A program made the translations under genes and the position numbers. Positions 7,173 through 60,873 of a DNA stretch of 64,000 bases are shown piece by piece. Position 1 is the first letter of the stretch; each line of letters opens with the position of its first letter. Below the pieces are notes generated by a model. It saw only the letters and a list, made by a program, of their open reading frames with translations, searched no databases and was not told the origin of the DNA. This stretch comes from Nannocystis pusilla (GTDB lineage Bacteria; Myxococcota_A; Polyangia; Nannocystales; Nannocystaceae). Location: assembly GCF_051105105.1 (NCBI RefSeq), contig NZ_CP185339.1; one strand, written 5' to 3'.

Positions 7173-7224
7173 CGCAGGCCCTCGCGCGCACCCGGCCTCA
7201 TCCTCGGCCCCCGCCCGCGCAGCG

Positions 7225-7307
7225 GCATGCCCGAAGGGACATGCCCGATTCGACATGTCCTTCTCGCCATGTCCATCACGACATGCCGCGAAGGACATGT
7301 CCAGTAG
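7225..7307. repeat. tandem array of six units of about 14 bp, each GACATGYCC plus a 4-7 nt spacer
   Basis: gcatgcccgaagg / gacatgcccgattc / gacatgtccttctcgc / catgtccatcac / gacatgccgcgaag / gacatgtccagtag. It lies in the intergenic region after the UDPGP gene, about 460 bp upstream of pgi. Confidence 0.8.
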
Positions 7308-9400: not shown

Positions 9401-10816
9401 ATGGCCCCGGTCCCCGGACTCCGCGCGCTCGTCACCCTGGCCTGGCCGATCGTGCTCGCACGCTCGGCGCAGTCGGTGATCAGCTTCAGTGACGCGGCGA
9501 TGGTCGCCCCGCTCGGCGACGACGCGCTCGCGGCCGCGACCACGGGCGCCATGAACGCGCTGGGGATCCTCGTCCTGCCGATGGGCATCACGTTCATCGT
9601 CCAGAGCTACGCGGCCCAGCTCGCCGGTCGGGGCGACCTCGCCAGCGCGCGCCGCTACGCCTGGTACGGCCTGTGCCTGGCCGCCCTGGCGATGATCGCC
9701 ACCATCGCCGCCATCCCGGCGATAGGTCCGCTCCTGTCGCTCACCGGCCACGCGCCGGCGGTGCGCGAGACGATGGCCGAGTACATGGCGATCCGCATGC
9801 TCAGCACCGGCGTGGTCGTCGGCACCGAGGCGCTCGGCAACTGGTTCGCCGGCCTCGGCGACACCCAGGTGTCGATGCGCGCCAGCCTGGTCGCCATGGT
9901 CGTCAACATCGGCCTCAACTGGGTCCTGATCTACGGCAACCTCGGCGCCCCCGCGCTCGGCGTCCAGGGGGCCGCGTGGGCCAGCGTGCTGGCCAGCGTG
10001 GCCGGCTTCGCGGTGTGCTGCCACGCCTTCTGGCGCGCGCGCGACCGGCGGGCGATCGACCCGGCGGCGCTCGGGCACGTCGAGCACCCGGTACCTGACC
10101 TTCCGGACAGCTCGGACGGCCGCCTCAACCTGCGCGAGTTCTCGCGGATGATGCGGTTCGGCCTGCCGAACGGCCTCAACTGGTTCCTCGAGTTCGCGGC
10201 CTTCCTGATCTTCATCAACCTCGTGGTCGCCGAGCTCGGGACCGTCGCGGTCGCGGCGCTGATGGCCGTGGTGGCCGTCAACTCGGTCTCGTTCATGCCC
10301 GCCTTCGGCCTCGGCTCGGCCGGCGCGGTCCTGGTCGGCCAGGCGATCGGCGCCGGCCGCCACGACCACGTGCCGCGGATCGTGGTGCGCACCTTCTCGG
10401 TCGCCGCCGCCTGGCAGGGCCTGGTCGGGCTGCTCTACTTCACGATCCCGGTGCCGCTGATGACGATCTTCGCCCGCGACGAGGTCGAGACGTCCAGCGA
10501 GGTCGTGCACCTCGGCGCCCAGCTGCTGGCGATCAGCGCCGTGTGGCAGCTGCTCGACGCCTCCGTGATCACCTTCAGCGAGGCGCTGCGCGCCGCCGGC
10601 GACACCGCCTGGCCGCTGATCCTCCGGATCGCGCTCGCCTGGGTGATCTGGCTGCCCCTGGCCTGGCTGACCGTGTTCGTCTGGGACGGCGGCGCGACCG
10701 CGGCGATGTGGAGCATGTGCGTGTACATGGTGTTCCTCGCCCTGGCGATGGTGCTCCGCTTCCGCACCGGCGCCTGGCGCCGCATCGACATCACCGGCCG
10801 CGGCGCGACCGGCTGA
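9401..10816 (+). CDS. MATE family efflux transporter
   Basis: 471 aa with 12 predicted TM segments. It has a typical MATE N-terminus (LAWPIVLARSAQSVISFSDAAMVAPLG) and the internal two-fold repeat. Confidence 0.8.
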   Translation: MAPVPGLRALVTLAWPIVLARSAQSVISFSDAAMVAPLGDDALAAATTGAMNALGILVLPMGITFIVQSYAAQLAGRGDLASARRYAWYGLCLAALAMIATIAAIPAIGPLLSLTGHAPAVRETMAEYMAIRMLSTGVVVGTEALGNWFAGLGDTQVSMRASLVAMVVNIGLNWVLIYGNLGAPALGVQGAAWASVLASVAGFAVCCHAFWRARDRRAIDPAALGHVEHPVPDLPDSSDGRLNLREFSRMMRFGLPNGLNWFLEFAAFLIFINLVVAELGTVAVAALMAVVAVNSVSFMPAFGLGSAGAVLVGQAIGAGRHDHVPRIVVRTFSVAAAWQGLVGLLYFTIPVPLMTIFARDEVETSSEVVHLGAQLLAISAVWQLLDASVITFSEALRAAGDTAWPLILRIALAWVIWLPLAWLTVFVWDGGATAAMWSMCVYMVFLALAMVLRFRTGAWRRIDITGRGATG

Positions 10817-10823
10817 TCGAGCC

Positions 10824-10880
10824 AGCTCTCGAGGGCATGTTCTCGAGAGCATGTCCTCGAGGGCATGCTCTCCAGGACAT
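10824..10880. repeat. tandem array of four units of about 14 bp (GCATGYYC-TCGAGR-like), filling the convergent intergenic region
   Basis: gggcatgttctcgaga / gcatgtcctcgagg / gcatgctctccag / gacatgctcttcag. It lies between the MATE stop (10816) and the DUF1963 stop (10886). Confidence 0.8.
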
Positions 10881-10885
10881 GCTCT

Positions 10886-15030: not shown

Positions 15031-15716
15031 GCACGCGGGTGTTCGTGGGCGCGCCGGCCGACCCGGCGCGCGTCGGCCTGGACGCCGCCGAGTCGCACTA
15101 CCTCCGCCGGGTCCGCCGGGTCGGCGACGGCGCGCGCATCGAGGCGATCGACGACCACGGCGCGCTGTGGCTGGCCGAGGTCGTCGGCGGCGACGCGCGC
15201 GGCACCACCGTGAAGTTGCTCGAGCAACGAACGGTGCCGGCCCCCGCGCGCGAGGTCGTCGTCCTGCTCGGCATGCCGGAGCCGGCCACCGTGCTCGACG
15301 TGCTGCCGGCGCTGTGCGAGATCGGCGTCGCCGAGGTCGTGCTGGTCCGCTGCGCGCGCAGCCAGGGCGCGGCGCCCGGCGGCGAACGGATCGCGCGGGT
15401 GCTGCGAGCGGCGCAGCGGCAGTGCGGCAGGCCCCGCGCGCCCGCGATCTCGGGACCCGTCGATCTCCGCGAGGCCACGCACCGGCGCACCGACCTCCCC
15501 GGCTTGTTCGCGTGGGAGGAGCTGCGCGCGACATCGAGCGACACGCCGGCGGTCGTCGCGGGTGCTCGTGTGTGCGTGGGGCCCGAAGGTGGGTTTACCC
15601 CCGAGGAGGCGGCGCTGCTGCGCGCCGCGGGCTTCCGCGCGCTCGGCCTCGGGCCCTACACGCTGCGCACCGAGACGGCGGCGCTGGTCGCTGTCGCTCG
15701 CGTGATGTTCGCCTGA
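15027..15716 (+). CDS. rsmE: 16S rRNA (uracil1498-N3)-methyltransferase RsmE
   Basis: Ends in ...VCVGPEGGFTPEEAALLRAAGFRALGLGPYTLRTETAALVAVA, the RsmE C-terminal SPOUT-knot motif. Its ATG overlaps the prmA stop (ATGA). Confidence 0.8.
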   Translation: MSTRVFVGAPADPARVGLDAAESHYLRRVRRVGDGARIEAIDDHGALWLAEVVGGDARGTTVKLLEQRTVPAPAREVVVLLGMPEPATVLDVLPALCEIGVAEVVLVRCARSQGAAPGGERIARVLRAAQRQCGRPRAPAISGPVDLREATHRRTDLPGLFAWEELRATSSDTPAVVAGARVCVGPEGGFTPEEAALLRAAGFRALGLGPYTLRTETAALVAVARVMFA

Positions 15717-15770
15717 GCGCCGGCGGGGACCCGCCGCGCCGCGCGGGGACGGACCGGGAGGCCCGGGGCC

Positions 15771-16370
15771 GTGTTATGGTGCGCGCCGATGGCGTTTTGG
15801 TCCCGCAAGGAGCGACCCGCACCGTGTCCGAGCTGCGACGCGGCGCTGGACATCGGCCTCGTCAAAGACGGGCGACCGACGTGCCCGGCGTGCGGGCAAG
15901 CGCTGGTGCCGGTGCGCGTCGCCGGCTTCTGGCGGCGCCTCGCCGCCGCGGTGGTCGACGCCGCGATCCTGCTCGTCACCGCCGGCCCGCTGCACCTCGG
16001 CTTGCAGCGCGTGATCGGCGAGGCGAGCCCGGTGCGCGGCGCCTTCTCGTGGGCCGGTCTGCTCCAGCTCCTGACCGTCGACCCGCTCGAGATCCTGGTG
16101 TGGCTGGCGCCGCTCCTGGTGATGGTAGCGATCTACTTCGTGCTCTTCATCGCCCTGTCCGGAAGGACACCCGGGCAGAAGCTCACCGGGATCCGCGTGG
16201 TCCACCGCGCCGGCGGCAAGGTCGGTCCGGTGCGCGCGACGGTGCGTTTCGCGGGCACCGCCGTCGGCCTGGTGCCCGGCGGCCTCGGCTCGCTGTGGAT
16301 GGCTTTCGACCGCGAGAAGCGGGCCTTCCACGACTACCTGACAGGCACCTACGTCGTGAGGGAACAGTGA
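15771..16370 (+). CDS. RDD family membrane protein with an N-terminal CxxC..CxxC zinc ribbon
   Basis: CPSCDAAL...CPACGQ, then the RDD-type membrane core (WRRLAAAVVDAAILL...RTPGQKLTGIRVV). Confidence 0.6.
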   Translation: MLWCAPMAFWSRKERPAPCPSCDAALDIGLVKDGRPTCPACGQALVPVRVAGFWRRLAAAVVDAAILLVTAGPLHLGLQRVIGEASPVRGAFSWAGLLQLLTVDPLEILVWLAPLLVMVAIYFVLFIALSGRTPGQKLTGIRVVHRAGGKVGPVRATVRFAGTAVGLVPGGLGSLWMAFDREKRAFHDYLTGTYVVREQ

Positions 16371-19300
16371 GCCTCCTCCTGCGCCACCTCGAAGCCAACG
16401 GCCCGCTGTCGCGCGCCGATCTCGAGGCCGCGACCCGGCGGCAGCAGCTGGCCGGCGGCAGCCTCGACACCGCGATCCTCGAGCTCGGGCTGATGACCCC
16501 GCTGCAGCTCGACGCCCTGCTGCAGAGCGCCTGCGGCCTCCCCGGCGCGCCGGTGCGGCTGCTCGAGCGCGGGCCGACCCGTCCCTGGGAACATGTCCCG
16601 AGAGACCTGGTCGACATCGGCTGGGCCATGCCGCTCGCGCAGGAGGACGGCCGGCTGATCGTCGCCGTCCACCCCGACCTGCCCGACGCCAAGCTCGGCC
16701 AGCTCTACCGCATGGTCCGCGGCTTCTACCCGGTCGTCGCGCCCGAGTGCTGCCTGGCCAAGATCGCCGTCGAGCGCACCGGCTCGATCCTCGCCCCGCG
16801 CTACGCGCTGATCCTGCTCGACTACCTCGAGGCGCTGCGCACCGCCTCGATCACCATCAGCCTGGTGCCGGGCTCCGCCGAGGCGCGGGCGGGCGAGCCG
16901 CCTGTCCCTGCGGACAGGCAGCCGGCCGAGGCACCTGTCGCAACGGACAGGCAGCCGACGGCGGCCCGCGCCGAGGCAGCTGTCCCTGCGGACAGGCAGA
17001 CGGCCGACGCGCCCGACGCGGCGCCTGTCCCTGCGGACAGGCAGACGGCCGACGCGCCCGACGCGGCGCCTGTCCCCGCGGACAGGCAGCCTGCCGACGC
17101 CCGAGGCGCCGACACGACTGTCCCTGCGGACAGGTCGCACGCCGAGGCGCGACCGGAGCCGTCCGGCGCCGACACCCCGGTCGACGCTCGCCTCGCCGAC
17201 GCGCCCGCCGGCGATCGCCAGGCAGGCGACCCCGACGCGAGCCTGGAGCCCGGCGCCCCGGCCCGCCGCACCGACGCGCCCCCCGCCGCCCACGGGCTGG
17301 AGGTCGAGGCCGGAGGCCCTGCCCTCGGTTCGTCGCGACCCGGCGGGTCGGTGATCGGCCAGGTCGCCGCTGGTCGCGCGGATGCTCCTGTCCCTGCGGA
17401 CAGGTCCGCCGCCGACGCGAAGGTCGACGGGGCCGAGGCCTCGACTGCGGCCGGCGCCGTGCAGGCGGACGCCGCGGACGACGGGCGGACCGCCGCTGCC
17501 CCTGCCACCGGGGACGGGACGACCGCGGGCGCGCGGCCGGCGTCGCTGGCCGACGCGCTGCAGGCCGACGTACCTGTCCCATCGGACAGGCAGATGGCCG
17601 GGCCGCGCCCGGCGGCGATGTCCGGGCCCAACACCGCGGCGCGCGCGACGGGTTCGCCGTCCGGCGCCTCGCCGTTGTCGGAGGCCGGCTCGCCGAGGAC
17701 CGGGCCCGAGGACGCGGCCGCGACACCGCCTGCCCCCGGGGACAGGCCGAACGAGTCGCCCGCACCTGCCCTCAAGGACAGCCGCGACGAGGCCATCGAC
17801 GCGGACCGGGCCCGCCCGGCGAACGGGCCCGCGCTCGCCGCGGGTTCGTCCCCCGCGGCGCCGACTCCCGCCGGTTCGACGGCGTCCGACTCGGACGCCC
17901 ACGCGCCTCTCGCCGCCGACGAGCTCGCCGCGGACCGAGCGGCCGCCAGCAGCCCCGCGCCGTCGGCGTCGGCCCCGGCCGATGCAACTGTCCCTGAGGA
18001 CAGCAAAGGCGAAGCATCGCCGTCGCCGAGCGTCGCCGGCGCGTCCGCACCGGTCCCCGCGGGCAGCTCCGCTTCCAACGCCTCGACCAGGTCATTCCAG
18101 CTCGACACCCCGAGCCTCGCCGCTGCGGGGCGCCGGACCGAGCCCGCCCCCGCGCCTGCCGCCGCGGCGAGCCGCCAGACGGCTGCCTACGACTCCCGCG
18201 CGCCCGAGCCCGACTCCGCTGCCGCCGCCAACCGGCCCTCGACGCGGCCCTCGCCCGTCCCCGTCGCCCCGGACGCCCCGCTCATCGACCCGGGCGGCTT
18301 CGAGGACGAGAACGCCTCGCTGGCGGCGATGGCCATCGCCCCCGACACGCCGCTCATCATCCTGCCGCCGGCGACCACGCCGCGACCGGTGACCCCGCCC
18401 CTCGGGGTGCCGATCTACTCGGACACCTCGTCCGGCAATTGGGACAGGCGCACCCTCGTCGGCATCCCCGTCGGCGTGGCGCCCTCCCCCGCCCCCGCGG
18501 CCGACAAGCCCGCGGCCGCGCACGGCCCGAGCAACGGCGTCGCTCGCCCCACGACCGCGCCGGGCACACCTGTCCCTTCGGCCAGCCCCGTCGAGCCCGC
18601 CCCGAGCCCGCCTGTCCCTTCGACCAGCTCCCTGGAGGCCGCGCCGAGCGCCGCCGAAGCCGGGTCCGACGAGGATCTGGTCGAGTCGTCGACGCGCAAG
18701 CCGCCGGCCCTGCCGCAGCCGATGGTCATGACGCTGGCGCAGCGCCTCGACGCCGCCCGCGCCACGCTGGCCACCGCGCGCGAGCGCGACCGGATCACCG
18801 AGGCCCTGGTGCGAGCCGCCAGCCTGATCGCCCCGCGCGTGGCCCTGTTCGGGGTCAAGCGCGAGGGTCTGCGCGTCCTGGCCGCGCCCGGCAGCGCGCT
18901 GCGGATGTCCGAGGGCCTCGTCATCCCGCTGCCCGAGGGCGGCCTCCTCGATCGCGCGGTGTCGGGCCAGGGTCCGCTGCACCTCCTGATCGAGCCGAGC
19001 CTGTCGTTCGCCGTCGGCCAGCCGCTGGGGATCCCCTGCATCTTCGAGCCCGTGCTCGCTGGCGGACGCACCGTGCTGATGCTCTACCTCGACCGCTCCG
19101 GCGTCGCCTTCGATCCGCGCGAGCGGACCGTCCTGCGCGAGCTGTGCGACACGGCCCGGCAGAGCCTCGAGGCGCTGCTGCGGCTGCTCGGGTGGGTGGT
19201 GCCCGGCGGCACGCCCGGGGCCGGCCCGGCCGACCGTACACGCCCGTCGATCCGGCCCGCGACCCCGATCGTCACCGTCGACGAGGCCGACCCGCCGGGG

Positions 19301-21637
19301 ACGACACCACCTGTCTCTGCGGACAGCTCCGAGCTCGAGCCCGAGCCGCCGGCCGCCGAGGCCGAGGCCGAATCCGACCCGCCCCAGCCGCCGCCGACCG
19401 CGAGCGGCGCGGCGAGTGAACCCGGCTTCGGAGACAACAACAGCGTCGCCAGCCGGCTGCGCAGCCGCGGCAACCGCGGGCGCGCCGTCATCACCCTGAA
19501 GAACCCGATCCGGCGCGACGATCCGGCGACCGTGACGCCGCTGCCGGTCCGCGCCGAGAGCTCCGCGCTCGTGCGGGCTCAGACGCTCGCCGACGAGCCG
19601 CCGCCCCCGCCCGACGAGCCGGAGTACGAGGACCTCACCGACGACCCCGAGGAGCTCGACAGTCCGCCGCCCCGCCGCGACGGCCCCGGCCTCGGCCTCG
19701 CGCCGGTCCCCGTGCCCCTCGGCCCCGAGAACGGCCAGGACAGCCCGCTCGTGGCCCGCTTCGCCGCGATGTTCACCAAGCCGCCGGTGCCGGCGGTGAC
19801 GATCGACCTGTCCGATCGGCCCAATACCTTCGGACATGCGCGATCGGACAGCCCCGAGGCGCCGCCGGCGAGCCCGCAGCCCGAGATGCCGGGCTGGATC
19901 GCCACCGCCGAGCCGTCGGGCATCGAGGACCCGCTGCCGGTGGCGGCGGCGCTGCGGTCGGCCGCAACCGCCGCCGAAGCCCGCGTCGACCACGATCCGG
20001 CGGCGACGCTGCCGGGCGCGCCGCGGGTCGTGCTCGAGGAGACCACGCGGTCATCCACATCCACGCGCGACGAGTTCGACGAGTGGCCGCGCGCCGCCTC
20101 CGACACCCCGACCATCCTCGACCTCTCGCCTCCGCCGACCCACGAGCCGCTGCTGGTCGAGACCCGCGCCGCGCCCGACGCCAAGACTGTCCTCGACCTC
20201 CCGCGGGTCGACTCCCCGGTCCCGCCCGAGACCCTGATCCCCAACCTCGTCGCCCCGCCCGGCATGCCCGGCGCGGGTCGCCGTCGCCGCGCCAACGAAC
20301 CGGCCGAGGACGAGCCGGTGCTGGTGATCCCGAAGACGCTGCGGCGCTCGGGCGGCCTCACCGCCACGCCGCACCCGATGGCCCGTCGCAGCGACCCCGA
20401 CGAGCTCGAAGGCGGCCCGACGCTGTCGATGCCGACCACTCTGATCGGCCCGCGCAGCGGCCGGCGCCGCGGCAAGCACGACCCGCGCCCCGACTCCTCG
20501 TCCAGCGCCCTGACCATGCCCCGGCTGGTGCGCGAGGCCGAGGCCGAGGCCGAGGAGGTTGCGGCCCAGTCGACCGCGGGAGGGGCCGTTCCTTCGGAAC
20601 ATGCCCCCGAGGACATGCCCCGGAAGACCGGTCCCCAAGCGCAGGTCGACGCGAGCGCGCCGGCCGGCGCCGCCGAGGCGAGCGGGTCCGTCGCGGCCTC
20701 GCCGGCCGACGCTCGCCCGGCCGCGGTCGAGCAGTCGACCGAGGAGCCGGCCGCGACCGCCGAGGTCGCCTCCGGCGCGGCGCTCGACGACCGCGAGATC
20801 GACGCGGTGATCGAGGACTTCTTGCAGAACCCGGCCGAGTGGACCAGCGTGTCGCGGCTGCGCGCGCTCGACGAGCGCGGCCTGGCCCGCCTGGCGGCGC
20901 GCTTTCCCGGCCCCATCGACCTCGCCAACGCGACCAACTTCCCGCCGCCGAGCGCTCACGGGCCGCTGCTGCGCGCCTGCGTCGAACTCGGCCACGCGGT
21001 CAGCCCGCACGTGCTCGCCCTGTTCGCCAGCGCACGGCCGCAGATCCGCTTCTACGCCGCGTTCCTGTTCCAGGAGCTGCGCGACCCGAAGTGCCTGCGG
21101 CCGCTCGGTGAGCTGGCGTTCGACTCCGACCCCGACGTGCGGCTGATCGCCACCCGCGTGCTCGAGTCCTACAGCCGCGTGCCCGACTTCGCGACGGTGG
21201 CCGCGGAGATCCGCGGCGAGCTCGAGAGCCCGGACCGCGACCGCCAGCTCCTCGCCGTCGAGGCCGCCGGCACCCTGCGCGACACCCTCGCGGTGCCGCG
21301 TCTCATCGACCTGCTGGCGGTCCGCGACAAGCACGTCCGCGAGGCGGCGCTCGAGGCCCTGTGCTCGATCACCGCCAAGCACCACGGCTACCGCGCCCAG
21401 CGCTGGCGGGCGTGGTACGCCGAGCACGGCCAGGAGCCGCGCATCGAGTGGGTCATCGACGGCCTGCGCCACCGCGACGAGGCCGTGCGCCGCTGGGCCG
21501 CCGACGAGCTGGCGCGGATCACCGGTCAGCGGATCCCGTTCCCGGCCGAGGGCGACCGCCGCAGCCGCGATCTGGCCCTGCGCGCCTGGCAGGCCTGGTG
21601 GGACAGCAACCGCGAGGACTTCACCGCCGGTAGCTGA
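16367..21637 (+). CDS. large multidomain protein of about 1750 aa: N-terminal MshEN (T2SS-E N-terminal-like) domain, long Pro/Ala/Asp-rich disordered repeats, a central GAF-like region and C-terminal HEAT/PBS-lyase repeats
   Basis: GTG at 16367 overlaps the RDD stop. The N-terminus LLRHLEANGPLSRADLEAATRRQQLAGGSLDTAILELGLMTPLQLDALL resembles the GspE-N/MshEN fold. The C-terminus (...DSDPDVRLIATRVLE...DRDRQLLAVEAAGTLRD...DKHVREAALEAL...DEAVRRWAADELARI) is HEAT-repeat-like. The 2156-aa ORF in the track is a GC-driven 5' over-extension through prmA, rsmE and the RDD gene. Confidence 0.7.
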   Translation: MSLLLRHLEANGPLSRADLEAATRRQQLAGGSLDTAILELGLMTPLQLDALLQSACGLPGAPVRLLERGPTRPWEHVPRDLVDIGWAMPLAQEDGRLIVAVHPDLPDAKLGQLYRMVRGFYPVVAPECCLAKIAVERTGSILAPRYALILLDYLEALRTASITISLVPGSAEARAGEPPVPADRQPAEAPVATDRQPTAARAEAAVPADRQTADAPDAAPVPADRQTADAPDAAPVPADRQPADARGADTTVPADRSHAEARPEPSGADTPVDARLADAPAGDRQAGDPDASLEPGAPARRTDAPPAAHGLEVEAGGPALGSSRPGGSVIGQVAAGRADAPVPADRSAADAKVDGAEASTAAGAVQADAADDGRTAAAPATGDGTTAGARPASLADALQADVPVPSDRQMAGPRPAAMSGPNTAARATGSPSGASPLSEAGSPRTGPEDAAATPPAPGDRPNESPAPALKDSRDEAIDADRARPANGPALAAGSSPAAPTPAGSTASDSDAHAPLAADELAADRAAASSPAPSASAPADATVPEDSKGEASPSPSVAGASAPVPAGSSASNASTRSFQLDTPSLAAAGRRTEPAPAPAAAASRQTAAYDSRAPEPDSAAAANRPSTRPSPVPVAPDAPLIDPGGFEDENASLAAMAIAPDTPLIILPPATTPRPVTPPLGVPIYSDTSSGNWDRRTLVGIPVGVAPSPAPAADKPAAAHGPSNGVARPTTAPGTPVPSASPVEPAPSPPVPSTSSLEAAPSAAEAGSDEDLVESSTRKPPALPQPMVMTLAQRLDAARATLATARERDRITEALVRAASLIAPRVALFGVKREGLRVLAAPGSALRMSEGLVIPLPEGGLLDRAVSGQGPLHLLIEPSLSFAVGQPLGIPCIFEPVLAGGRTVLMLYLDRSGVAFDPRERTVLRELCDTARQSLEALLRLLGWVVPGGTPGAGPADRTRPSIRPATPIVTVDEADPPGTTPPVSADSSELEPEPPAAEAEAESDPPQPPPTASGAASEPGFGDNNSVASRLRSRGNRGRAVITLKNPIRRDDPATVTPLPVRAESSALVRAQTLADEPPPPPDEPEYEDLTDDPEELDSPPPRRDGPGLGLAPVPVPLGPENGQDSPLVARFAAMFTKPPVPAVTIDLSDRPNTFGHARSDSPEAPPASPQPEMPGWIATAEPSGIEDPLPVAAALRSAATAAEARVDHDPAATLPGAPRVVLEETTRSSTSTRDEFDEWPRAASDTPTILDLSPPPTHEPLLVETRAAPDAKTVLDLPRVDSPVPPETLIPNLVAPPGMPGAGRRRRANEPAEDEPVLVIPKTLRRSGGLTATPHPMARRSDPDELEGGPTLSMPTTLIGPRSGRRRGKHDPRPDSSSSALTMPRLVREAEAEAEEVAAQSTAGGAVPSEHAPEDMPRKTGPQAQVDASAPAGAAEASGSVAASPADARPAAVEQSTEEPAATAEVASGAALDDREIDAVIEDFLQNPAEWTSVSRLRALDERGLARLAARFPGPIDLANATNFPPPSAHGPLLRACVELGHAVSPHVLALFASARPQIRFYAAFLFQELRDPKCLRPLGELAFDSDPDVRLIATRVLESYSRVPDFATVAAEIRGELESPDRDRQLLAVEAAGTLRDTLAVPRLIDLLAVRDKHVREAALEALCSITAKHHGYRAQRWRAWYAEHGQEPRIEWVIDGLRHRDEAVRRWAADELARITGQRIPFPAEGDRRSRDLALRAWQAWWDSNREDFTAGS
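16980..17069 (+). repeat. exact 45-bp tandem duplication (x2, plus a degenerate third copy) inside the giant gene; each unit carries the inverted repeat CTGTCC-CTGC-GGACAG
   Basis: ctgtccctgcggacaggcagacggccgacgcgcccgacgcggcgc occurs twice back to back, encoding PVPADRQTADAPDAA. Further CTGTCC-N4-GGACAG copies lie near 16902, 16935, 17396, 17583, 17995, 19308 and elsewhere. Confidence 0.85.
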
Positions 21638-21649
21638 GCGGCTGTCACT

Positions 21650-21707
21650 TCGGGCATGTCCTGAAAGACATGCCTGAATCGGCATGCTCATTCGGGCATG
21701 TCCTCTG
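21650..21707. repeat. tandem array of four units of about 14 bp of the same family
   Basis: cgggcatgtcctgaaa / gacatgcctgaatcg / gcatgctcattcgg / gcatgtcctctgg. It begins immediately after the giant gene's stop (21637). Confidence 0.8.
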
Positions 21708-22033
21708 GACCAGGCACCGCGGCGACCCGAGCGCGCGCGAGCGCGTGCTACCCGACACGGCCGCAGGCCCGGCCGTCCGGGCGCGGCCTTCGCCCGTGCC
21801 CATGACGGTTCCGGCCGCGACACCGCACCTGCGCCGCCCGAGCTCGCAAGGCCACGGCGCAGGCATGACCGTTCGGACATGCCCCATCGACCTCCCGCTC
21901 GCCCGCCGCAGCCATGACTGTTCGGACACGGCCTTTCGACCATCTCCCTTGTTCAACGCCGGCGACGGGCCCTCGCTGACCAGCGCGGAGGACATGGCCG
22001 ATGCGCCACGCCCTCGGAGCGCCTTCTCGCGGC

Positions 22034-22870
22034 TCAGAGGTCGTCGACGACCTTCACCTTGCCGGTCTTGGCCGGAGCGATCCGGCCCATCCGCACCGGC
22101 TCGGGCGGCGGCGGGGGCTCGACGACGGCGATGTCGCCCATCAGCGGCTGCGATTTGGGCGGCTCGACCACCTTCACCGGCGCCTGGCCCATCTGCGGCG
22201 GCGGCGGCGGGGCGAAGCCGGGCTGCGGATCGCACGGCTCCTTCACCTCCGGCATCGCCTCGCCCATCTTCGCGTGCTCGACCGGCGCCACCTTGCCCAT
22301 CAGCTCCTCGGTCGGCGGCGGCGGCGGCGGCTCGACGGCGATCGGCGCGGCGCCCATCACCTCGGGGACGGGCGGGACCGGCGGCGGCTGGGGCGGACGG
22401 ATTCGGGCCCCGAGGTCGACGACGTTCTTGCAGACCTCGTGACCCACCGGGAAGTGCATGGTGGTGAAGGGCCCGGTCTGGACCTCGCAACCGCCCTCGG
22501 GCGAGGGCTTGGCGTCGCGGGCCATCGCCTCGATGGCGATGTCGCCGATGTCCTGGATCGGCGGGCCGTCGCCGTGCGGGGCGCAGGCGGCCAGGAGCAT
22601 CGCCGCGAAGGCGGTGCGCACCGGGCGGAGGCGAGACAGCGGGACGGTGTCGCGAAACGCGATCTGGCCGTCTTCCTGGTTCGAGTAGCGGACGCACAGG
22701 TGCTCGCCCTTGTGCGCCTGCAGGAGATCGGTGGCCGCCTGCCGCGTCATCGCCGAGAGGTTGTGCACGTGTTTGGCGCAGACATCGCAGAAGCGGCGCT
22801 CCGCATCGCCGTGCATGGCGTCCCACGACTCGTGGCAGGGGCTCTTGATCTCGACGTTGCGACTGTGCAT
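22034..22870 (-). CDS. hypothetical protein with an N-terminal Cys/His zinc-binding motif and a Pro-rich MG-repeat C-terminus
   Basis: CHESWDAMHGDAERRFCDVCAKHVH, followed by repeated ...PPPP..MG.. units resembling a TonB-like spacer. Confidence 0.5.
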   Translation of the reverse strand: MHSRNVEIKSPCHESWDAMHGDAERRFCDVCAKHVHNLSAMTRQAATDLLQAHKGEHLCVRYSNQEDGQIAFRDTVPLSRLRPVRTAFAAMLLAACAPHGDGPPIQDIGDIAIEAMARDAKPSPEGGCEVQTGPFTTMHFPVGHEVCKNVVDLGARIRPPQPPPVPPVPEVMGAAPIAVEPPPPPPTEELMGKVAPVEHAKMGEAMPEVKEPCDPQPGFAPPPPPQMGQAPVKVVEPPKSQPLMGDIAVVEPPPPPEPVRMGRIAPAKTGKVKVVDDL

Positions 22871-22980
22871 GGCGGCGGGACAACGCGCGGGGTCGGGGCC
22901 GGGTCTCGTGCGAGAGCTCGGCGCAGCGCGTCGTGAGGACCAGCGTATCCCCCGTGCGAGAAGCTTGGTATAGGGCCGGC

Positions 22981-23976
22981 GTGCCCCATGTCCCTGCCCT
23001 CCTCGCGCGACTGCGCGACGAGCCGCGCTACCTCGCCGCGCTGGCAGCGCTGCTGGTCGACGAGGTCCTCGCCGCGCCGGCGCGCCGCTTCATCGATCCC
23101 GTAAGGCTGACCCCGCTGATCGTCACCGGCCTGCAAGCCGTCGCCGCCGCGCCCGGCCACGCGGCGTGGCTCGAGCAGCGCCTCCGCGACGCGCTGACAC
23201 GGATCCGTCCGCGACAGGGCACGCTGCGCGCGCGCTTGCCCGGCGATCTGCTGCCGCTGCTGCGCACCGTGGTCCGCCGGCCCTACACGCCGAGCCGCGC
23301 GCTCGTGCGAGCGGTCGTCGATCAGGCGACCGTGCGCGACCTGTCGCGCACGATCCTCCACACCACCCTGCTCGACTTCGCCAAGAAGGTCGGCTCGATC
23401 TTGCCGGACACCAGCAAGATCCCGGGCGCCGGCGTCACCTCGAAGCTGTTCGGCGTCGCCAAGGGCGTGGCCTCCGTGGTCGGGCTCGACGCTTCGGTCG
23501 AGGACCGCGTGCGCGGCTTCGTCGACGGGGCTGTCGGTCGCGTGATCGACATGATCGTCGACCGCGTCAGCGACCCCAAGCACGCCGGCGAGGGCGCGGC
23601 CTTCCGCACCGACGTGCTCGCCTCGCTGCTCGACCTGCCGGAGTCCGCCGTCCACGCCGAGCTCGTCAAGCTCGACCCGGCCGTGGTCGCGGCCGACGTC
23701 CAGGCCGCGCTGGTCGCCGTCGCCGCCTGGGACCGCCTACCGGCCGAGGTCGAGGCGGTGCTCACGGAGGCGGTCGCCGGCCTCGGCGACGTCACGGTCG
23801 GCGAGCTGCTGGCCGGATCGGGCGAGATCGAGGCGTGGCGCGGCGCGGTCGAGGCCGAGCTGCGCTACCACCTCGGCCACGGCCTCGCCGGCCCGCGCTT
23901 CGCCGCCTGGCTCGAGCACCTGGTCGCCGGGACATTGCCTGAAGAGCAGGTCCCTGGGGCCAGCAGCGCCGAGTGA
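22981..23976 (+). CDS. hypothetical protein
   Basis: Intact 330-aa ORF with protein-like composition and no recognisable motif. The GTG start is inferred. Confidence 0.45.
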   Translation: MPHVPALLARLRDEPRYLAALAALLVDEVLAAPARRFIDPVRLTPLIVTGLQAVAAAPGHAAWLEQRLRDALTRIRPRQGTLRARLPGDLLPLLRTVVRRPYTPSRALVRAVVDQATVRDLSRTILHTTLLDFAKKVGSILPDTSKIPGAGVTSKLFGVAKGVASVVGLDASVEDRVRGFVDGAVGRVIDMIVDRVSDPKHAGEGAAFRTDVLASLLDLPESAVHAELVKLDPAVVAADVQAALVAVAAWDRLPAEVEAVLTEAVAGLGDVTVGELLAGSGEIEAWRGAVEAELRYHLGHGLAGPRFAAWLEHLVAGTLPEEQVPGASSAE

Positions 23977-23983
23977 CCCGACA

Positions 23984-24015
23984 CCTGCGCTTCAGGACAT
24001 GCCCTGAAGCGCAGG
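23984..24015. terminator. perfect 13-bp-stem hairpin (cctgcgcttcagg-acatgc-cctgaagcgcagg) between convergent genes; candidate bidirectional intrinsic terminator lacking a U-tract
   Basis: It starts 8 nt after the stop of the 22981-23976 gene and ends 110 nt before the 3' end of the 24126 gene on the other strand. The loop and flanks contain the GGACATGCC motif. Confidence 0.45.
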
Positions 24016-24125
24016 TTCGCCTCCCAGCGCTCGGACCGCGACGCGCGGACGCGGACGGCCGCTCCCGCGAGCGCACGCACCCGGCAGCGCCCCGTCAGGC
24101 GCGGCGAACCTCGCGTCCGACCGGT

Positions 24126-43183: not shown

Positions 43184-44593
<1,410 letters not shown>

Positions 44594-45289
44594 GGGCGCT
44601 CGAGTCGAACCCGCGGTGTGCAATTCGGGGTCCTCGGTGAAAAGCGAATGATTCTAAGGCAAGTCCTGGAGCCAGAACGAGGGTGTCACGCGCAATTGTC
44701 AGGCCGTCCGAGGCGGGTTGCCAAAATGGCAATCGCGGCCCTCGCGCCCGCCTCCCGGCGCCTCAACCGCCACCCCCCTGCCCCGCCTTGGCGGGGCGGC
44801 GGCGAGGTCGGCCAGGGGGCGAGGCGGCGGCTGGCGCTTGGGACAGGTCGAGGAGCGGCAGCTGGAACGACGAGAGTGAGACGGATGCGCTGCGGGGGGC
44901 TGTCTCGAGGGACAGGTCGCGGTCGACGGCTCGGGTCGTCGGTGGGGCCGGTGATCGCTCGGCCGGAGGCGTACCTGTCTCGACGGACATGTGGGCGCTG
45001 GCGGGCGCTTCGCTCGGATTGCTGCGTGACGGCGCCGTTGCATCTGGTTCTTGGGACATGTCCGTCTCGGCGGGCCGGACTGGCCTCGCGGTCGCTGGCG
45101 CGCGCGCGGTCCTGGCTCGCGCGACCGTGCTCGCCCCGGGCTCGACCGGCGCCTCTGACTTCGACGGACCCGTCCCGGCGGACAGGCCATCGCCCGCGGC
45201 GCGCTTGGCGGCGGCCTTGCGCCCTTTCTTGCTCGGGCCTTCGCCTGTCTCTTCGGTCAGACTCTTCTGGGGCGGCCGGATCTTTCCTC

Positions 45290-58547: not shown

Positions 58548-58862
58548 GGCGAGAACGGTAGCCGAGGTCGTGCTGCAGGTGCGAGGGGCGATTTCGCGCG
58601 AACAGGCGAACGCCACGGAGGGCGGCGGGAACGAGGCACGGGCGCGCGTCGCCTGTCGCCAGGTTTTCGGCCCTGGTAGCGGCTGGGAGCGCCGGGCGGC
58701 GAAATCATCGACCGGTCGAGCTCGGCGCGGAGCCACGCTCGGCCGCGCAGCGGGCCGTTCGCGCCTGGGGGCGCCGCCGCCGGGTCGCGGACGGGTGAGA
58801 CGCGATCTGGCCGATGGGACAGACCCTCCGCGACGCCCTCGACCCTCGGCCGGCGCATGTCC

Positions 58863-59837
58863 TCACGGACATGTCGCCGGGGCCAGCTTGCAGTCGGAGA
58901 ACCAGGCGGCAACGTCGCGGCACTGCGGGTCGGCCGGGTCGGCGGCGGCGCAGGCGAGGAAGCCGGCGCGATCGCGCAGGGAGCACAGGCGCGGCAGCTC
59001 CCACTTGCGGTCGCGGCAGCTGGTGTCGCGCGGGTCGCAGGTGCTGCGCATCCAGGTCGCGGTGCCGTCGCCGCGGAGGAACACGCGGTCATCGACGTTG
59101 CGGGCGCCGACCAGGCTCTCGACGCGGAGGCTGGCGGCGGCCTCGGCGGCGAGGGCCTGGTAGAGGCAGGCGTCGCCGGCGACCTCGTCGTCGCACGGGC
59201 GCGGCGAGGCGCAGGCTTCGAGCAGCGCGAGGGCGATGTCACCCGGGCAGCGGCCGGCCGCGCACACGCAGGCGCACGCCTCGGGGTCCTGCGAGCCGAG
59301 GCCGCACTCGGTCCAGCCTGCAGGATGCTCGGGGCCGGGGAAGTCGCCGGCCTTGCGACCGACGCGGCGGACGTGGACGACGTTGCCGACCCGCTTGTAG
59401 AAGGTGGAGTCGTAGTCCTCGTCGCCGGTCGAGGCGCTGGCGGTGGCGCAGAAGCCCGCGGCCTCGAAGGCGCAGGTCGAGCGATTGGCGAGGCGCTCGG
59501 TGGCGAACCAGATGCAACCGGCGGCGTCGCAGTCGGCCTCGACGGCGTGCGACTCGCACGGCTCGACGGCCGCGGGCGGGAGCTCGGGCGCGAGGTCGGG
59601 CGGCGGCGTGACGAGGGCGCCGCTGCCGGTGACCGGCACGCTGGTGGCGGCGTCGCCGGTGCTCGTGCTGCCGGCGGTGCCGGTGGTGCTCCCCTCGCCG
59701 ACCGTCGCCACGGTGCCGCCCTCGCTGTCGGTGCCGCGCGAAGCCGCGTCGGACCGCCCGGGGCTACACCCAGTCGCTACCAGCCACGAGAAGAGATAGG
59801 CGACGCCTGCCGGGCGCGCGCCAAAACCAAACCGCAC
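58863..59837 (-). CDS. Cys-rich lipoprotein, hypothetical
   Basis: Signal peptide plus lipobox (MRFGFGARPAGVAYLFSWLVATGC), a T/G/S linker, then a domain with more than 20 Cys (...CDAAGCIW...CAFEAAGFCA...CACVCAAGRCPGD...). Confidence 0.5.
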   Translation of the reverse strand: MRFGFGARPAGVAYLFSWLVATGCSPGRSDAASRGTDSEGGTVATVGEGSTTGTAGSTSTGDAATSVPVTGSGALVTPPPDLAPELPPAAVEPCESHAVEADCDAAGCIWFATERLANRSTCAFEAAGFCATASASTGDEDYDSTFYKRVGNVVHVRRVGRKAGDFPGPEHPAGWTECGLGSQDPEACACVCAAGRCPGDIALALLEACASPRPCDDEVAGDACLYQALAAEAAASLRVESLVGARNVDDRVFLRGDGTATWMRSTCDPRDTSCRDRKWELPRLCSLRDRAGFLACAAADPADPQCRDVAAWFSDCKLAPATCP

Positions 59838-60802
59838 GGTCTCACCCTGCCAGAGCACGCGCAGGAGATCAAGGAACCGCAGCGCTGGCGGCCCCGGCGC
59901 GGCGCGACGATTGCGACCGAGGCTGCCCGACGATGTGGGCGAGCATCGCCGGTGTAAGAAGCTCGCTGCGACGAATGGGTGATGCGCGACACAGGCCCGG
60001 CGCGATGAAGGATGAAGAAGGAATGCCGGCGACGGGCTGGAGTCGACGGTTGCCCGCGGTTGCGAGGGAGAGGCCCACTCCGAGGCGTTTTCCGCGGGCC
60101 AGCGGGGCCCGGGCGCGGGCTGTGCGAACCGGTGTGCTCGGCTCGGCGGAGCGTCGGTCGCAAGGGTGACCCGCGCTCGCGGCTGCACGGTCGATGACGT
60201 TGGTCCACGCGCCGCCTGCCCTTCCGGCTCGGTCGTCGCGCCCGTTCCTGGCGCTCGCGCGGGCCGATCCTTGCGGTGTCATTCCGTGACCCGCGTCGGA
60301 GGCGAGGCGCGTCGGTGTCGAGGCGAACTGCAACGCGTTGTTCGATCGCGCGGCGGCGCAGGCGACGTCGTCCGGTCGGCGCTGGAGCCGGTGGGCGAAG
60401 CGCAGTGCGTCTGTCGACGTGACAGTGGCGGTGCCGCGGCGGGAGTACGACTGTCCGGTCCAGCGAGGCTGGAGGCGGAGCGCGACCGTCGATTTCGACG
60501 CGCGAGTCAGCGCCCGGCGCGACGGCCACCACGGCGCAGCGAACCTGCCGGGTCGGGATCGGCCGGCGTGCCCCGAGTGCAGGGGCGCGGTCCCTGCCCC
60601 GTCCACGGACCGCCGCGCGGCCGAACCAGGGCGCGGGGTCCCTGCCCCGTTCGCGTCGGATCGGCGCGGCCGAGCCTACCTCGCGCCGCGCGAACGCATC
60701 CCCCGGGCCGGCGGCCTCTTGCTCGCCCGGCTGCAGCGAGCTCGCTGCAGCGGCTGCAAGAACGTCGACGCATTGGGATAGCTGAACGCACACATCCCTC
60801 AC

Positions 60803-60873
60803 GACATGCTCTTTCGAGCATGCTCTTCGGAGCATGTCTTTTCGCCAATGGGCGAAAGAGCATGTCGCTTCGG
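60803..60873. repeat. tandem array of four units of about 14 bp of the same family, with an embedded 7-bp-stem hairpin
   Basis: gacatgctctttcga / gcatgctcttcgga / gcatgtcttttcgccaatgggcgaaaga / gcatgtcgcttcgg. The third unit carries the hairpin tttcgcc-aatg-ggcgaaa. Confidence 0.8.

What the first reader, a model, noticed from the sequence alone, without database searches (positions are those of the whole stretch)
21638..22033. A 400-bp motif-rich spacer after the giant gene: a four-unit array plus a 30-bp direct repeat
Directly after the stop at 21637 comes the four-unit array (21650-21707). After that come two copies of an approximately 30-bp element, gcatgaccgttcggacatgccccatcgacc (about 21853-21882) and ccatgactgttcggacacggcctttcgacc (about 21913-21942), spaced 60 bp apart. 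Each contains GTTCGGACA, which relates to the TGTCCGAACGGACA palindrome at 44483. No ORF with coding character occupies this region on either strand. It is a candidate regulatory or ncRNA-bearing region.
Basis: seen in the sequence. Interest (0 to 1): 0.55.

Follow-up and report, generated by a model that had tools for sequence, protein, structure and literature searches.

The report
Genome-wide 14-bp palindrome arrays after genes
The spacer is not a private regulatory region: it is packed with copies of one 14-base palindrome (TGTCC-N4-GGACA) that litters Nannocystis genomes, lines up in exact 14-base arrays just after stop codons, and is kept even at silent codon positions, and I found no published description of it.

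Summary
A four-unit array lies at 21652-21703, and a real about 38-bp direct repeat follows (31/38 identical). The repeat spacing is 49 bp, not 60, and copy 1 starts at 21863. The window comes from Nannocystis (Myxococcota). The region is the convergent 3' spacer between a 2156-aa HEAT-repeat gene and a Pro/Gly-rich gene. It shows no coding signal and no Rfam match.

All its motifs are copies of one lineage-specific word, TGYCC-N4-GGRCA. The word occurs 79 times at N=4 in 195 kb, against 0.5 expected, and almost never at N=3 or N=5. Where copies abut, the junction reads CATG and the period is exactly 14 bp.

Arrays of three or more units lie 3-70 nt after stop codons, and none was found in the divergent spacers of the gene-called loci. 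They turn over between species. They fold into long hairpins that are somewhat better on the sense strand, and they lack U-tracts. The word also sits in frame inside genes and fixes otherwise rare synonymous bases (27/27 T at third codon positions).

Best reading: a REP/BIME-like 3'-end hairpin element built from a HIP1-like, highly iterated palindrome whose recognising factor is unknown. Novelty: new variant of a known kind.

The parts
15167..21637 (+). Giant gene (2156 aa, C-terminal HEAT repeats). Its stop, TGA 21635-21637, is the left boundary of the spacer.
   Evidence: ORF list. Pfam HEAT_2/HEAT/Arm hits. Orthologues in six Nannocystis species at 74-94% identity.
21652..21703 (.). Four abutted units with CATG junctions at 21655, 21669, 21683 and 21697 (period 14 bp). 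Read in the other register these are 14-mers TGYCC-N4-GRCA, for example 21657-21670 TGTCCTGAAAGACA.
   Evidence: The sense-strand RNA of 21638-21715 folds as one nested hairpin at -35.6 kcal/mol (z -3.7), against -27.7 (z -2.0) for the antisense strand. The array is conserved in position in RBIL2 and N. pusilla.
21708..21717 (.). Decayed fifth unit (GGACCAGGCA). The orthologous unit in N. pusilla still reads GACCATGGCC.
   Evidence: Alignment and the array list.
21718..21854 (.). G+C-rich filler with one relic unit (21798-21807 GCCCATGACG). It is not conserved beyond N. pusilla.
   Evidence: (family D4).
21855..21892 (.). Direct-repeat copy 1. It contains an intact two-unit doublet (21861-21870 AGGCATGACC, 21875-21884 GGACATGCCC), and the 14-mer 21866-21879 TGACCGTTCGGACA.
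   Evidence: The doublet is conserved in RBIL2 and N. pusilla.
21904..21941 (.). Direct-repeat copy 2, 31/38 identical to copy 1, with a decayed doublet (CATG...CACG). It is a lineage-specific duplication.
   Evidence: It is absent from L001 and L006.
21990..21999 (.). Single unit GGACATGGCC, 34 nt from the stop of the convergent gene. In N. exedens, N. punicea and N. bainbridge a 4-6-unit array lies at the equivalent place, next to that gene's stop.
22034..22870 (-). Convergent 278-aa Pro/Gly-rich gene. Its stop is TCA on the plus strand at 22034-22036. No Pfam family matches.
7223..7302 (.). Six-unit array of the same family. It starts about 50 nt after the stop of the UDP-glucose pyrophosphorylase gene (7172), in a co-directional spacer of roughly 600 bp.
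10833..10884 (.). Four-unit array filling the 69-bp convergent spacer between the MATE transporter gene (stop 10816) and a DUF1963 gene (stop 10886).
   Evidence: Fold energy -44.4 kcal/mol, z -6.4.
23983..24016 (.). A 34-nt palindrome centred on CATG, starting 7 nt after the stop of gene 22933-23976. The same spacer in N. bainbridge holds three arrays.
58853..58876 (.). Doublet containing a perfect 14-mer, TGTCCTCACGGACA (58858-58871), at the stop of a minus-strand gene.
60802..60867 (.). Array of 3+1 units, about 65 nt 3' of the minus-strand hydrolase gene (stop at 60931).
16903..18002 (+). Eight perfect and three one-mismatch in-frame copies of the 14-mer (typically CCTGTCCCTGCGGACAGG) inside the giant gene. 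They encode the repeated peptide P-V-P-A-D-R-Q in a disordered Ala/Asp/Pro-rich stretch.
44486..44499 (.). Perfect 14-mer TGTCCGAACGGACA, in frame in an NtrC-type response-regulator gene.

Best explanation
SHOWN. The 396-bp spacer is a convergent 3' intergenic region of a Nannocystis genome. Its motifs are eight copies, some decayed, of one lineage-specific and hugely over-represented 14-bp interrupted palindrome, TGYCC-N4-GGRCA. When copies abut head to tail, the junction ...GGACA|TGTCC... reads CATG and the period is exactly 14 bp. That is the 'four-unit array'. The '30-bp direct repeat' is a duplicated doublet of the same units. Such arrays sit next to stop codons all over the genus, gain and lose units between species, and form long composite palindromes.

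INFERRED, how it works. In the transcript of the upstream gene the array folds into a long, stable hairpin. This acts like a REP/BIME element or a hairpin-only ('I-shaped') terminator. It would be a 3'-end barrier that stops or protects the two convergent mRNAs, rather than a regulator specific to this locus.

INFERRED, how it is kept. The 14-mer itself is maintained genome-wide by sequence-specific recognition at the nucleotide level, by a factor not yet identified. The two 5-bp half-sites lie one helical turn apart, which is the geometry of a dimeric DNA-binding protein or enzyme. The 3' spacers are where copies can accumulate and be put to use.
For: IDENTITY OF THE UNIT
- CATG spacing is 14 bp 20 times, against about 1 expected, and never 13 or 15.
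- TGTCC-N-GGACA occurs 79 times at N=4 in 195 kb of core Nannocystis (0.5 expected), once at N=3 and never at N=5. It occurs 32 times in 96 kb of near relatives and 0 times in 51 kb of distant Nannocystales.
- Of 88 GTCC-N4-GGAC occurrences, 79 carry the outer T...A pair.
- In the window there are 45 hits with at most 1 mismatch, against 1.7 expected.

3'-END PLACEMENT
- Every intergenic array of three or more units lies 3-70 nt from a stop codon.
- In co-directional spacers the array lies 11-54 nt from the upstream stop, against 115-645 nt from the next start.
- None was found in the divergent spacers of the gene-called loci. In Nannocystis sp. SCPEA4, six of the eight spacers of at least 40 bp that contain a gene 3' end carry units, and a further doublet sits in a shorter 26-bp spacer.
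- The flanking genes are functionally unrelated.

HAIRPINS
- Arrays fold at -32 to -53 kcal/mol, with z from -3.7 to -6.4.
- For 16 arrays with an unambiguous sense strand, the sense RNA folds better by 4.2 kcal/mol on average (10 better against 1 worse, Wilcoxon p=0.03).

NUCLEOTIDE-LEVEL MAINTENANCE
- In-frame GTC-CNN-NNG-GAC is preceded by a third-position T in 27 of 27 cases, where the background is 3%. In the other frame the rare ACA codon is used 9 of 9 times.
- Two coding sites stay perfect in 4 of 5 orthologues at 50% amino-acid identity. The T is kept in GCT, CCT, GAT or TAT codons.
Against: - There is no U-tract after the arrays: 1.7 T in 10 nt on the sense strand, against 1.4 expected. 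They are therefore not canonical intrinsic terminators (the scan also found none).
- Adjacent units show no covariation beyond their shared consensus (z about 1).
- Permuting the order of units weakens folding only marginally (z about -1.9).
- The sense-strand advantage is modest. It rests partly on orthologous arrays that are not independent, and it has clear exceptions (window 7226 and L043).
- Coding copies show no mRNA-hairpin signature: G.U on the sense strand 9 times, against A.C 20 times.
- The strict N4 loop and the invariant CATG are not needed for a plain RNA hairpin. They fit DNA-level recognition better.
- There are no expression data, and no candidate recognising protein was identified.
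Confidence: 0.5

Rival explanations
1. A purely DNA-level element. Each 14-mer is a binding site for an abundant dimeric DNA-binding protein, such as a nucleoid-associated protein, an orphan methyltransferase as proposed for cyanobacterial HIP1, or a CRP/FNR-type 5-N4-5 binder. Abutted arrays after stop codons are then protein arrays on DNA, acting as transcription roadblocks or topological and domain barriers between convergent genes. RNA folding would be a by-product.
For: - N4 spacing is strict, the half-sites are dyad-symmetric with centres 9 bp apart, and the centre is variable.
- Otherwise rare synonymous bases are fixed, and this is conserved across genera.
- Coding copies show no G.U preference on the sense strand.
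- The phase is an exact 14 bp, with no 13- or 15-bp variants among 69 adjacent pairs.
- CATG is retained where the flanks of a unit have diverged, for example unit 3 in L001 and L006.
- There is no covariation between units.
Against: - The sense strand folds better in the 3' arrays (p=0.03). Some arrays are strongly asymmetric (GGGCATGTTC-type units), which makes poor DNA dyads but good G.U hairpins.
- Units within one array resemble each other, which points to local tandem duplication as the source of the exact period.
- No binding protein or methyltransferase has been identified.
Confidence: 0.25
2. Selfish or neutral repeats with no cellular role. They could be a REPIN-like miniature mobile element mobilised by a Y1/HUH transposase that recognises the 5-bp-stem tetraloop hairpin. 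Or they could be self-expanding palindromic minisatellites that grow by replication slippage and survive only where they do no harm, that is, downstream of genes.
For: - Presence, absence and copy number turn over at orthologous spacers. N. bainbridge has 4-, 7- and 7-unit arrays where N. radixulma has none, and the registers differ between species.
- Distribution is patchy among close relatives. L085 has arrays, whereas L156, L157 and L158 lack them but keep the hairpin at a period of about 26-27 bp.
- Units within an array share a local flavour, which implies tandem duplication.
- Copy 2 in the finding is a recent duplication.
Against: - Placement is tight, 11-54 nt from stop codons in long co-directional spacers. 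That is not expected for insertions that are merely tolerated.
- A 14-nt insertion would break a reading frame, yet conserved enzymes carry perfect in-frame copies fixed at synonymous sites and conserved at 50% amino-acid identity.
- The arrays have no GTAG or CGTC head (sequences; family definition in PMC3733652).
- No transposase was seen in any fetched locus.
Confidence: 0.15
3. One reading: a locus-specific cis-regulatory region, or a small non-coding RNA gene, lying between the two genes.
For: - The spacer is non-coding, long for a convergent spacer (396 bp) and structured. Minus-strand RNA of 21850-21950 folds at -50.5 kcal/mol, z -3.65.
Against: - No Rfam match even at E<=10.
- No promoter-like or terminator-like site.
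- The spacer sequence is not conserved apart from the family units. Its length varies from about 135 to 420 bp and parts of it are lineage-specific duplications.
- Identical motif arrays follow many unrelated genes.
Confidence: 0.04

Closest known systems
REP / BIME elements (repetitive extragenic palindromes and their clusters; Enterobacteria, Pseudomonas, Stenotrophomonas)
   Same: - Short palindromic repeats in very high copy number.
- Concentrated in intergenic DNA at gene 3' ends and in convergent spacers.
- Clustered in regularly spaced arrays that fold into hairpins.
- Lineage-specific consensus, and copy-number turnover between species.
- Proposed roles in termination and mRNA 3' stabilisation (PMC2817692, PMC3733652, bioRxiv 10.64898/2026.03.23.713779).
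   Different: - The unit here is only 14 bp, a perfect dyad with a strict 4-nt centre, and it has no GTAG or CGTC head.
- Units abut with zero spacer, giving an exact 14-bp phase.
- Many copies lie in frame inside genes, with synonymous sites fixed.
- No RAYT transposase is known for it.
HIP1, the highly iterated palindrome GCGATCGC of cyanobacteria
   Same: - A short palindromic word over-represented by orders of magnitude.
- Found in both coding and non-coding DNA.
- Lineage-restricted, with an unresolved function.
- Thought to be kept by a sequence-specific factor; orphan methyltransferases are proposed for HIP1 (PMC4390886).
   Different: - HIP1 is an uninterrupted 8-mer centred on a methylation site. 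To my knowledge (recalled, not tested here) it does not form phase-locked arrays after stop codons.
- The Nannocystis word is an interrupted 5-N4-5 palindrome, and no methyltransferase link has been tested.
DNA uptake sequences (Neisseria DUS, Pasteurellaceae USS). This comparison rests on my own knowledge and was not tested here.
   Same: - An abundant genome-wide word present in genes in tolerated frames.
- Inverted pairs of the word form hairpins downstream of genes.
   Different: - DUS and USS are asymmetric words, and their inverted pairs have variable spacing.
- Here the inverted pair with fixed N4 is itself the word.
- Competence and uptake specificity are unknown in Nannocystis.
Intrinsic (Rho-independent) terminators, including hairpin-only 'I-shaped' terminators proposed for high-G+C bacteria
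   Same: A stable hairpin within about 20 nt of the stop codon, and bidirectional in convergent spacers.
   Different: There is no U-tract, and there is a shared sequence motif that a terminator does not need.
Tandem operator arrays of cooperative dimeric repressors (MetJ met-boxes, omega heptads). Recalled analogy.
   Same: Phase-locked tandem copies of a short dyad-symmetric site.
   Different: Those arrays lie at promoters of specific regulons. Here there would be thousands of copies, at gene 3' ends and inside genes.

Membership tests
REP/BIME | High-copy short palindromic repeat, mainly extragenic, clustered at regular spacing | tested here: inconclusive
   - High copy number and clustering are met: 45 hits against 1.7 expected in the window, and arrays at exactly 14 bp.
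- Density is 1.8/kb in intergenic DNA against 0.74/kb in coding DNA.
- However, about three quarters of copies in the gene-called loci are inside genes, and the unit is 14 bp rather than 20-40 bp.
REP/BIME | Conserved GTAG or CGTC tetranucleotide at one end of the palindrome (PMC3733652) | tested here: not met
   The flanks of the 14-mer are CC...GG or CA...TG. No GTAG or CGTC head recurs in the arrays.
REP/BIME | Cognate RAYT (Y1 transposase) gene flanked by the repeats | not testable with these tools
   Only about 350 kb of Nannocystaceae DNA could be fetched. No transposase appeared in the gene lists. Whole genomes could not be scanned.
Canonical intrinsic terminator | G+C-rich hairpin shortly after the stop codon | tested here: met
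   Fold energies are -32 to -53 kcal/mol with z from -3.7 to -6.4. Arrays lie 3-70 nt from stop codons.
Canonical intrinsic terminator | U-tract immediately 3' of the hairpin | tested here: not met
   Mean of 1.7 T in the 10 nt downstream on sense strands (n=32), against 1.4 expected from composition. The terminator scan found none.
HIP-type highly iterated palindrome | Short palindromic word over-represented by orders of magnitude, in coding and non-coding DNA, within one lineage | tested here: met
   - 79 observed against 0.5 expected, with strict N4.
- 28 of 90 genes carry at least one copy.
- Absent from 51 kb of distant Nannocystales.
HIP-type highly iterated palindrome | Maintained against codon usage, that is, by selection or drive at the nucleotide level | tested here: met
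   - 27 of 27 third-position T (background 3%), and 9 of 9 ACA codons (background 2.9% of Thr codons).
- Perfect copies are kept in 4 of 5 orthologues at 50% amino-acid identity.
HIP-type highly iterated palindrome | Cognate (orphan) DNA methyltransferase recognising the word (PMC4390886) | not testable with these tools
   No methylome data or whole-genome gene inventory was available.
Known RNA family (Rfam 15) | Covariance-model match at or near the gathering score | tested here: not met
   No hit in the whole window at gathering thresholds. For 21000-23000 at E<=10 there were only four chance-level hits, none of them inside the spacer.
Protein-coding gene | Codon-position G+C pattern of this genome, and an ORF conserved in relatives | tested here: not met
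   The phase profile is flat in 21640-22000. There are frame-breaking indels against N. pusilla and no alignment to RBIL2.

The most novel reading that the evidence does not exclude
TGTCC-N4-GGACA may be the recognition word of a genome-wide system not yet described in Nannocystis and its nearest relatives. This would be a dimeric DNA-binding protein or an orphan modification enzyme whose sites are selected even at silent codon positions. In this reading, the abutted 14-bp arrays placed right after stop codons are protein-loaded barriers that end transcription between neighbouring genes. That would be a sequence-specific, factor-dependent way of marking gene 3' ends in a high-G+C bacterium that lacks U-tract terminators.
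Probability: 0.22. Interest if true: 0.8.

Novelty: new variant of a known kind. Interest (0 to 1): 0.62.

Why it matters
- Scale. Nannocystis genomes are 11-13 Mb (contig lengths). At 0.4 perfect copies per kb, or about 0.7-0.8 near-perfect copies per kb, the word would be present in several thousand copies. I found no published description.
- A new system for an old question. It adds a second, architecturally different example to the small set of highly iterated palindromes whose function is still debated, HIP1 being the other. It comes with tractable clues: a strict 5-N4-5 geometry, synonymous-site fixation, and a clean phylogenetic boundary between motif-positive and motif-negative relatives. 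That boundary would allow the responsible gene to be nominated by phylogenetic profiling.
- 3'-end formation. It offers a testable candidate for how 3' ends are formed in myxobacteria, where canonical terminators appear scarce (my recollection, not checked here).
- Practical uses. The arrays mark gene ends for annotation. They explain odd low-GC3 repeat stretches inside giant genes. They are ready-made parts for engineering these producers of natural products.

Tried and rejected
- Rfam scans of the spacer at E<=10 and of the whole window at gathering scores, and a tRNA/tmRNA scan, found nothing.
- The sigma-70 promoter and U-tract terminator scan of 21400-22300 found nothing.
- The exact-protein look-up for the 278-aa neighbour was not on record, and P0191 was not on record either.
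- The strict pattern GRCATGYC x3 gave no hits in viral contigs and none in the 14 loci held at that point.
- RCATGY x4 at 14 bp in viral contigs returned 16 hits, all ordinary perfect minisatellites.
Only L043, L052, L053, L066 and L085 are the Nannocystis type.
- Covariation between adjacent units was not above what the shared consensus gives (z about 1).
- Permuting unit order gave only z about -1.9.
- The 4-nt spacers are not themselves palindromic and carry no GNRA or UUCG signature.
- No U-tract enrichment was found after the arrays.
- I first dismissed the 44483 palindrome as a coding coincidence. I reversed this once the 14-mer reading emerged.
- I first took CATG plus a 10-bp palindrome as the unit. 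I replaced this with TGYCC-N4-GGRCA, with CATG as the junction, because relatives keep the hairpin without CATG.
- Doublets inside PGI, the giant gene (EHAPEDMP) and two other genes are in-frame coding copies, not intergenic arrays.
- Literature searches for Nannocystis or myxobacterial intergenic repeats, REPs or RAYT returned nothing relevant.
Full report
WHAT IS THERE

The region 21638-22033 lies between the stop of a 2156-aa gene with C-terminal HEAT repeats (15167-21637, plus strand) and the stop of a 278-aa Pro/Gly-rich gene (22034-22870, minus strand). It is therefore a convergent 3' spacer.

The flanking genes show the codon-phase G+C pattern of this 72% G+C genome, about 0.98, 0.47 and 0.78. 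Inside the spacer the three phases are flat at 0.58-0.87, so nothing there looks coding. Rfam gives no match in the spacer even at E<=10, and none in the whole window at gathering scores. The promoter and terminator scan finds nothing.

CHECKING THE OBSERVATION

The four-unit array is real. The units are GGGCATGTCC, AGACATGCCT, CGGCATGCTC and GGGCATGTCC, at 21652, 21666, 21680 and 21694. Their CATG cores are exactly 14 bp apart, and the array starts 15 nt after the stop.

The direct repeat is also real. Positions 21855-21892 and 21904-21941 are 31/38 identical, and none of 200 shuffles reaches that. Copy 1 starts at 21863, not 21853, and the spacing is 49 bp, not 60. GTTCGGACA occurs three times in the window against 0.43 expected.

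THE ARRAY IS ONE MEMBER OF A DISPERSED FAMILY

Across the window, CATG-CATG distances of exactly 14, 28 and 42 bp occur 20, 11 and 8 times, where about 1 is expected. Distances of 13 and 15 bp never occur.

Arrays of the same kind lie at 7223-7302 (6 units), 10833-10884 (4 units) and 60802-60867 (3+1 units). There are doublets at 21861-21884 and 58853-58876, and a CATG-centred 34-nt palindrome at 23983-24016.

A position-weight matrix finds eight units in the 396-bp spacer.

SOURCE AND COMPARISON WITH RELATIVES

The C-terminal part of the giant gene finds orthologues at 74-94% identity in six Nannocystis species. More distant Nannocystales MAGs match at about 50%.

All six orthologous spacers carry 14-bp CATG arrays directly after the giant gene's stop. 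Several carry a second array next to the convergent gene's stop. Spacer length (about 135-420 bp), unit number and register all differ.

The window's spacer aligns with N. pusilla up to about 21895. It aligns with strain RBIL2 only over the array. Copy 2 and about 140 bp around it are absent from both. So there is no conserved ncRNA or regulatory sequence here. What recurs is the element type.

POSITION RELATIVE TO GENES

Loci with gene calls come from N. bainbridge, N. radixulma, N. exedens and Nannocystis sp. SCPEA4. In these, arrays and doublets lie only in spacers that contain a gene 3' end, and always on the stop-codon side.

- Examples are 23 nt after the UDP-glucose pyrophosphorylase stop against 645 nt before the next start, and 23 nt after the MeaB stop against 424 nt.
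- In SCPEA4 the distances are 11, 25 and 34 nt against 115, 199 and 267 nt.
- Short convergent spacers are filled completely by 3-7 units.
- Divergent spacers have none.

Orthologous spacers can differ in presence or absence. N. bainbridge has arrays of 4, 7 and 7 units where N. radixulma has none. The neighbouring genes are functionally unrelated.

RE-READING THE UNIT

Close relatives that lack 14-bp arrays (MAG JADJNN01, metagenome contig L157, MAG JAEUJW01) have repeated hairpins of the form cCTGTCC-NNNN-GGACAGc in their 3' spacers, at a period of about 26-27 bp. This shows that the basic unit is the 14-bp interrupted palindrome TGTCC-N4-GGACA. In core Nannocystis, copies are abutted so that ...GGACA|TGTCC... 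creates the CATG and the 14-bp period.

The spacing spectrum is very sharp.

- TGTCC-N-GGACA occurs 79 times at N=4 in 195 kb of core Nannocystis (0.5 expected), once at N=3 and never at N=5.
- It occurs 32 times in 96 kb of the near relatives, and never in 51 kb of distant Nannocystales.
- Of 88 GTCC-N4-GGAC occurrences, 79 have the outer T...A pair.
- In the window the 14-mer with at most one mismatch occurs 45 times against 1.7 expected.

THE WORD IS ALSO INSIDE GENES, AT THE NUCLEOTIDE LEVEL

In the gene-called loci, 28 of 90 genes carry at least one copy. Copies use only the two reading frames that cost a single A/T third position. These translate as V-(P/L)-x-D or as (L/M)-S-x-x-T.

- Whenever GTC-CNN-NNG-GAC is in frame (27 cases), the preceding codon ends in T. 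The background for third-position T is 3%.
- In the other frame the Thr codon is ACA in 9 of 9 cases, although ACA makes up 2.9% of Thr codons.
- In a 1050-1080-aa protein shared by five genomes at only 50% identity, two sites remain perfect in four of five. The T is carried by GCT, CCT, GAT or TAT codons that encode different amino acids.

The giant gene itself holds eight perfect and three one-mismatch in-frame copies between 16903 and 18002. They encode a repeated P-V-P-A-D-R-Q in a disordered stretch, using rare CCT and AGG codons. The word is therefore maintained by something that reads nucleotides, not by a peptide motif.

HOW IT MOST LIKELY WORKS

Two lines of evidence pull in somewhat different directions.

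For the 3' arrays, the position tight against stop codons and the strong folding point to an RNA-level 3'-end hairpin.

- Folding is -35.6 kcal/mol (z -3.7) for the sense strand of the finding's array, and down to -53 kcal/mol elsewhere.
- The sense-strand advantage averages 4.2 kcal/mol, with 10 arrays better, 1 worse and 5 within 1 kcal/mol, Wilcoxon p=0.03, n=16.
- This is what REP/BIME elements or hairpin-only terminators do.
- Against a canonical terminator, there is no U-tract.

For the 14-mer as such, several features point to sequence-specific recognition of DNA by a symmetric factor.

- The N4 centre is strict, the half-sites are dyad-symmetric one helical turn apart, and the centre is variable.
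- Synonymous positions are fixed.
- Coding copies show no G.U preference on the sense strand (9 against 20).
- Adjacent units do not covary.

My best synthesis is that the word is kept genome-wide by an unidentified recogniser. Spacers at gene 3' ends are where copies multiply, by local 14-bp tandem duplication, as the array-specific 'flavours' of units suggest. There they serve as hairpin barriers for the converging transcripts. I put about 0.5 on that. I put 0.25 on a purely DNA-level protein-array role, 0.15 on selfish or neutral repeats, and very little on a locus-specific ncRNA or regulatory role.

COMPARISON WITH KNOWN SYSTEMS

The element works most like REP/BIME. It shares the high copy number, the 3' intergenic clusters, the hairpins and the turnover between species. 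It fails the sequence hallmark of the two REP superfamilies, which is a GTAG or CGTC head (PMC3733652). It is also much shorter and is abundant inside genes. A RAYT transposase could not be sought.

As a genome-wide word it resembles HIP1 of cyanobacteria (PMC4390886). The differences are that it is an interrupted 5-N4-5 palindrome and that it forms phase-locked arrays after stop codons.

I found no publication describing it. Outside the Nannocystis lineage, the pattern scans returned only ordinary minisatellites. Among the Nannocystis-type metagenome contigs, a gene of L085 has its best named match in Nannocystis sp. at 81% identity; L043, L052, L053 and L066 were not assigned to an organism.

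VERDICT

- The finding is one instance of an undescribed, lineage-wide, highly iterated palindrome system. I rate it a new variant of a known kind, of moderate to high interest.

Noticed in passing
window 16903-19325 (inside the giant gene 15167-21637): There are 8 perfect and 5 one-mismatch in-frame copies of the 14-mer, typically CCTGTCCCTGCGGACAGG, partly at a 45-bp period. They encode a repeated P-V-P-A-D-R-Q in an Ala/Asp/Pro-rich disordered region, using rare CCT and AGG codons. This stretch loses the normal GC3 coding signature. The N. bainbridge orthologue has similar copies at a 42-bp period, encoding P-V-L-A-D-S-P.
   Followed up: partly
window 23940-24016; L003 about 9800-9990; L004 9700-9920; L005 9760-9900: The C-terminal tail of gene 22933-23976 (..GTLPEEQVPGASSAE*) is built from degenerate units (gggaCATTgcccgaagagCAGGtccc). 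In N. punicea this 3' coding end is tandemly duplicated beyond the stop. In N. bainbridge the same spacer holds three arrays, including a duplicated segment of about 70 bp. Coding 3' ends seem to grow into, or out of, the arrays.
   Followed up: partly
L157 7456-7638 and L157 19437-20801: A metagenomic relative without 14-bp arrays has seven CTGTCC-N4-GGACA(G/T) hairpins at a period of about 26-27 bp, filling a convergent spacer. It also has a gene whose N-terminal region is a 21-bp (7-aa) repeat, H-L-S-P-(R/E)-T-(P/A), built on the same 14-mer.
   Followed up: partly
window 8647-8664; L031 9249; L032 9245; L033 9230: A two-unit doublet (ggaCATGgccttcgggaCATGg) lies inside the glucose-6-phosphate isomerase gene. 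It is conserved in all relatives, including one that lacks intergenic arrays.
   Followed up: partly
window 44600-45330: An unusually long stretch of about 730 bp has no coding signal. It lies upstream of the NtrC-type response-regulator gene and contains several copies of the 14-mer family (44901, 44976, 45054 GGACATGTCC, 45171). It was not analysed further.
   Followed up: no
window 7173 to about 7800; L031 7658-8369; L032 7497-8365; L033 8259-8350: The spacer between the UDP-glucose pyrophosphorylase and PGI genes is about 600-870 bp in Nannocystis but only 92 bp in the 72%-identity metagenomic relative. Apart from the array at its 5' edge, the content of the expanded spacer is unexplained.
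   Followed up: no
L085 10180-10400; L043 2781-2990: Metagenome contigs of G+C 0.71-0.76 carry longer composite arrays. One has a 42-bp super-period of two CATG junctions plus one CAGG junction. Another is an 11-unit array followed by decayed units, directly after a stop codon. A gene of L085 has its best named match in Nannocystis sp. at 81% identity; L043 was not assigned to an organism.
   Followed up: partly
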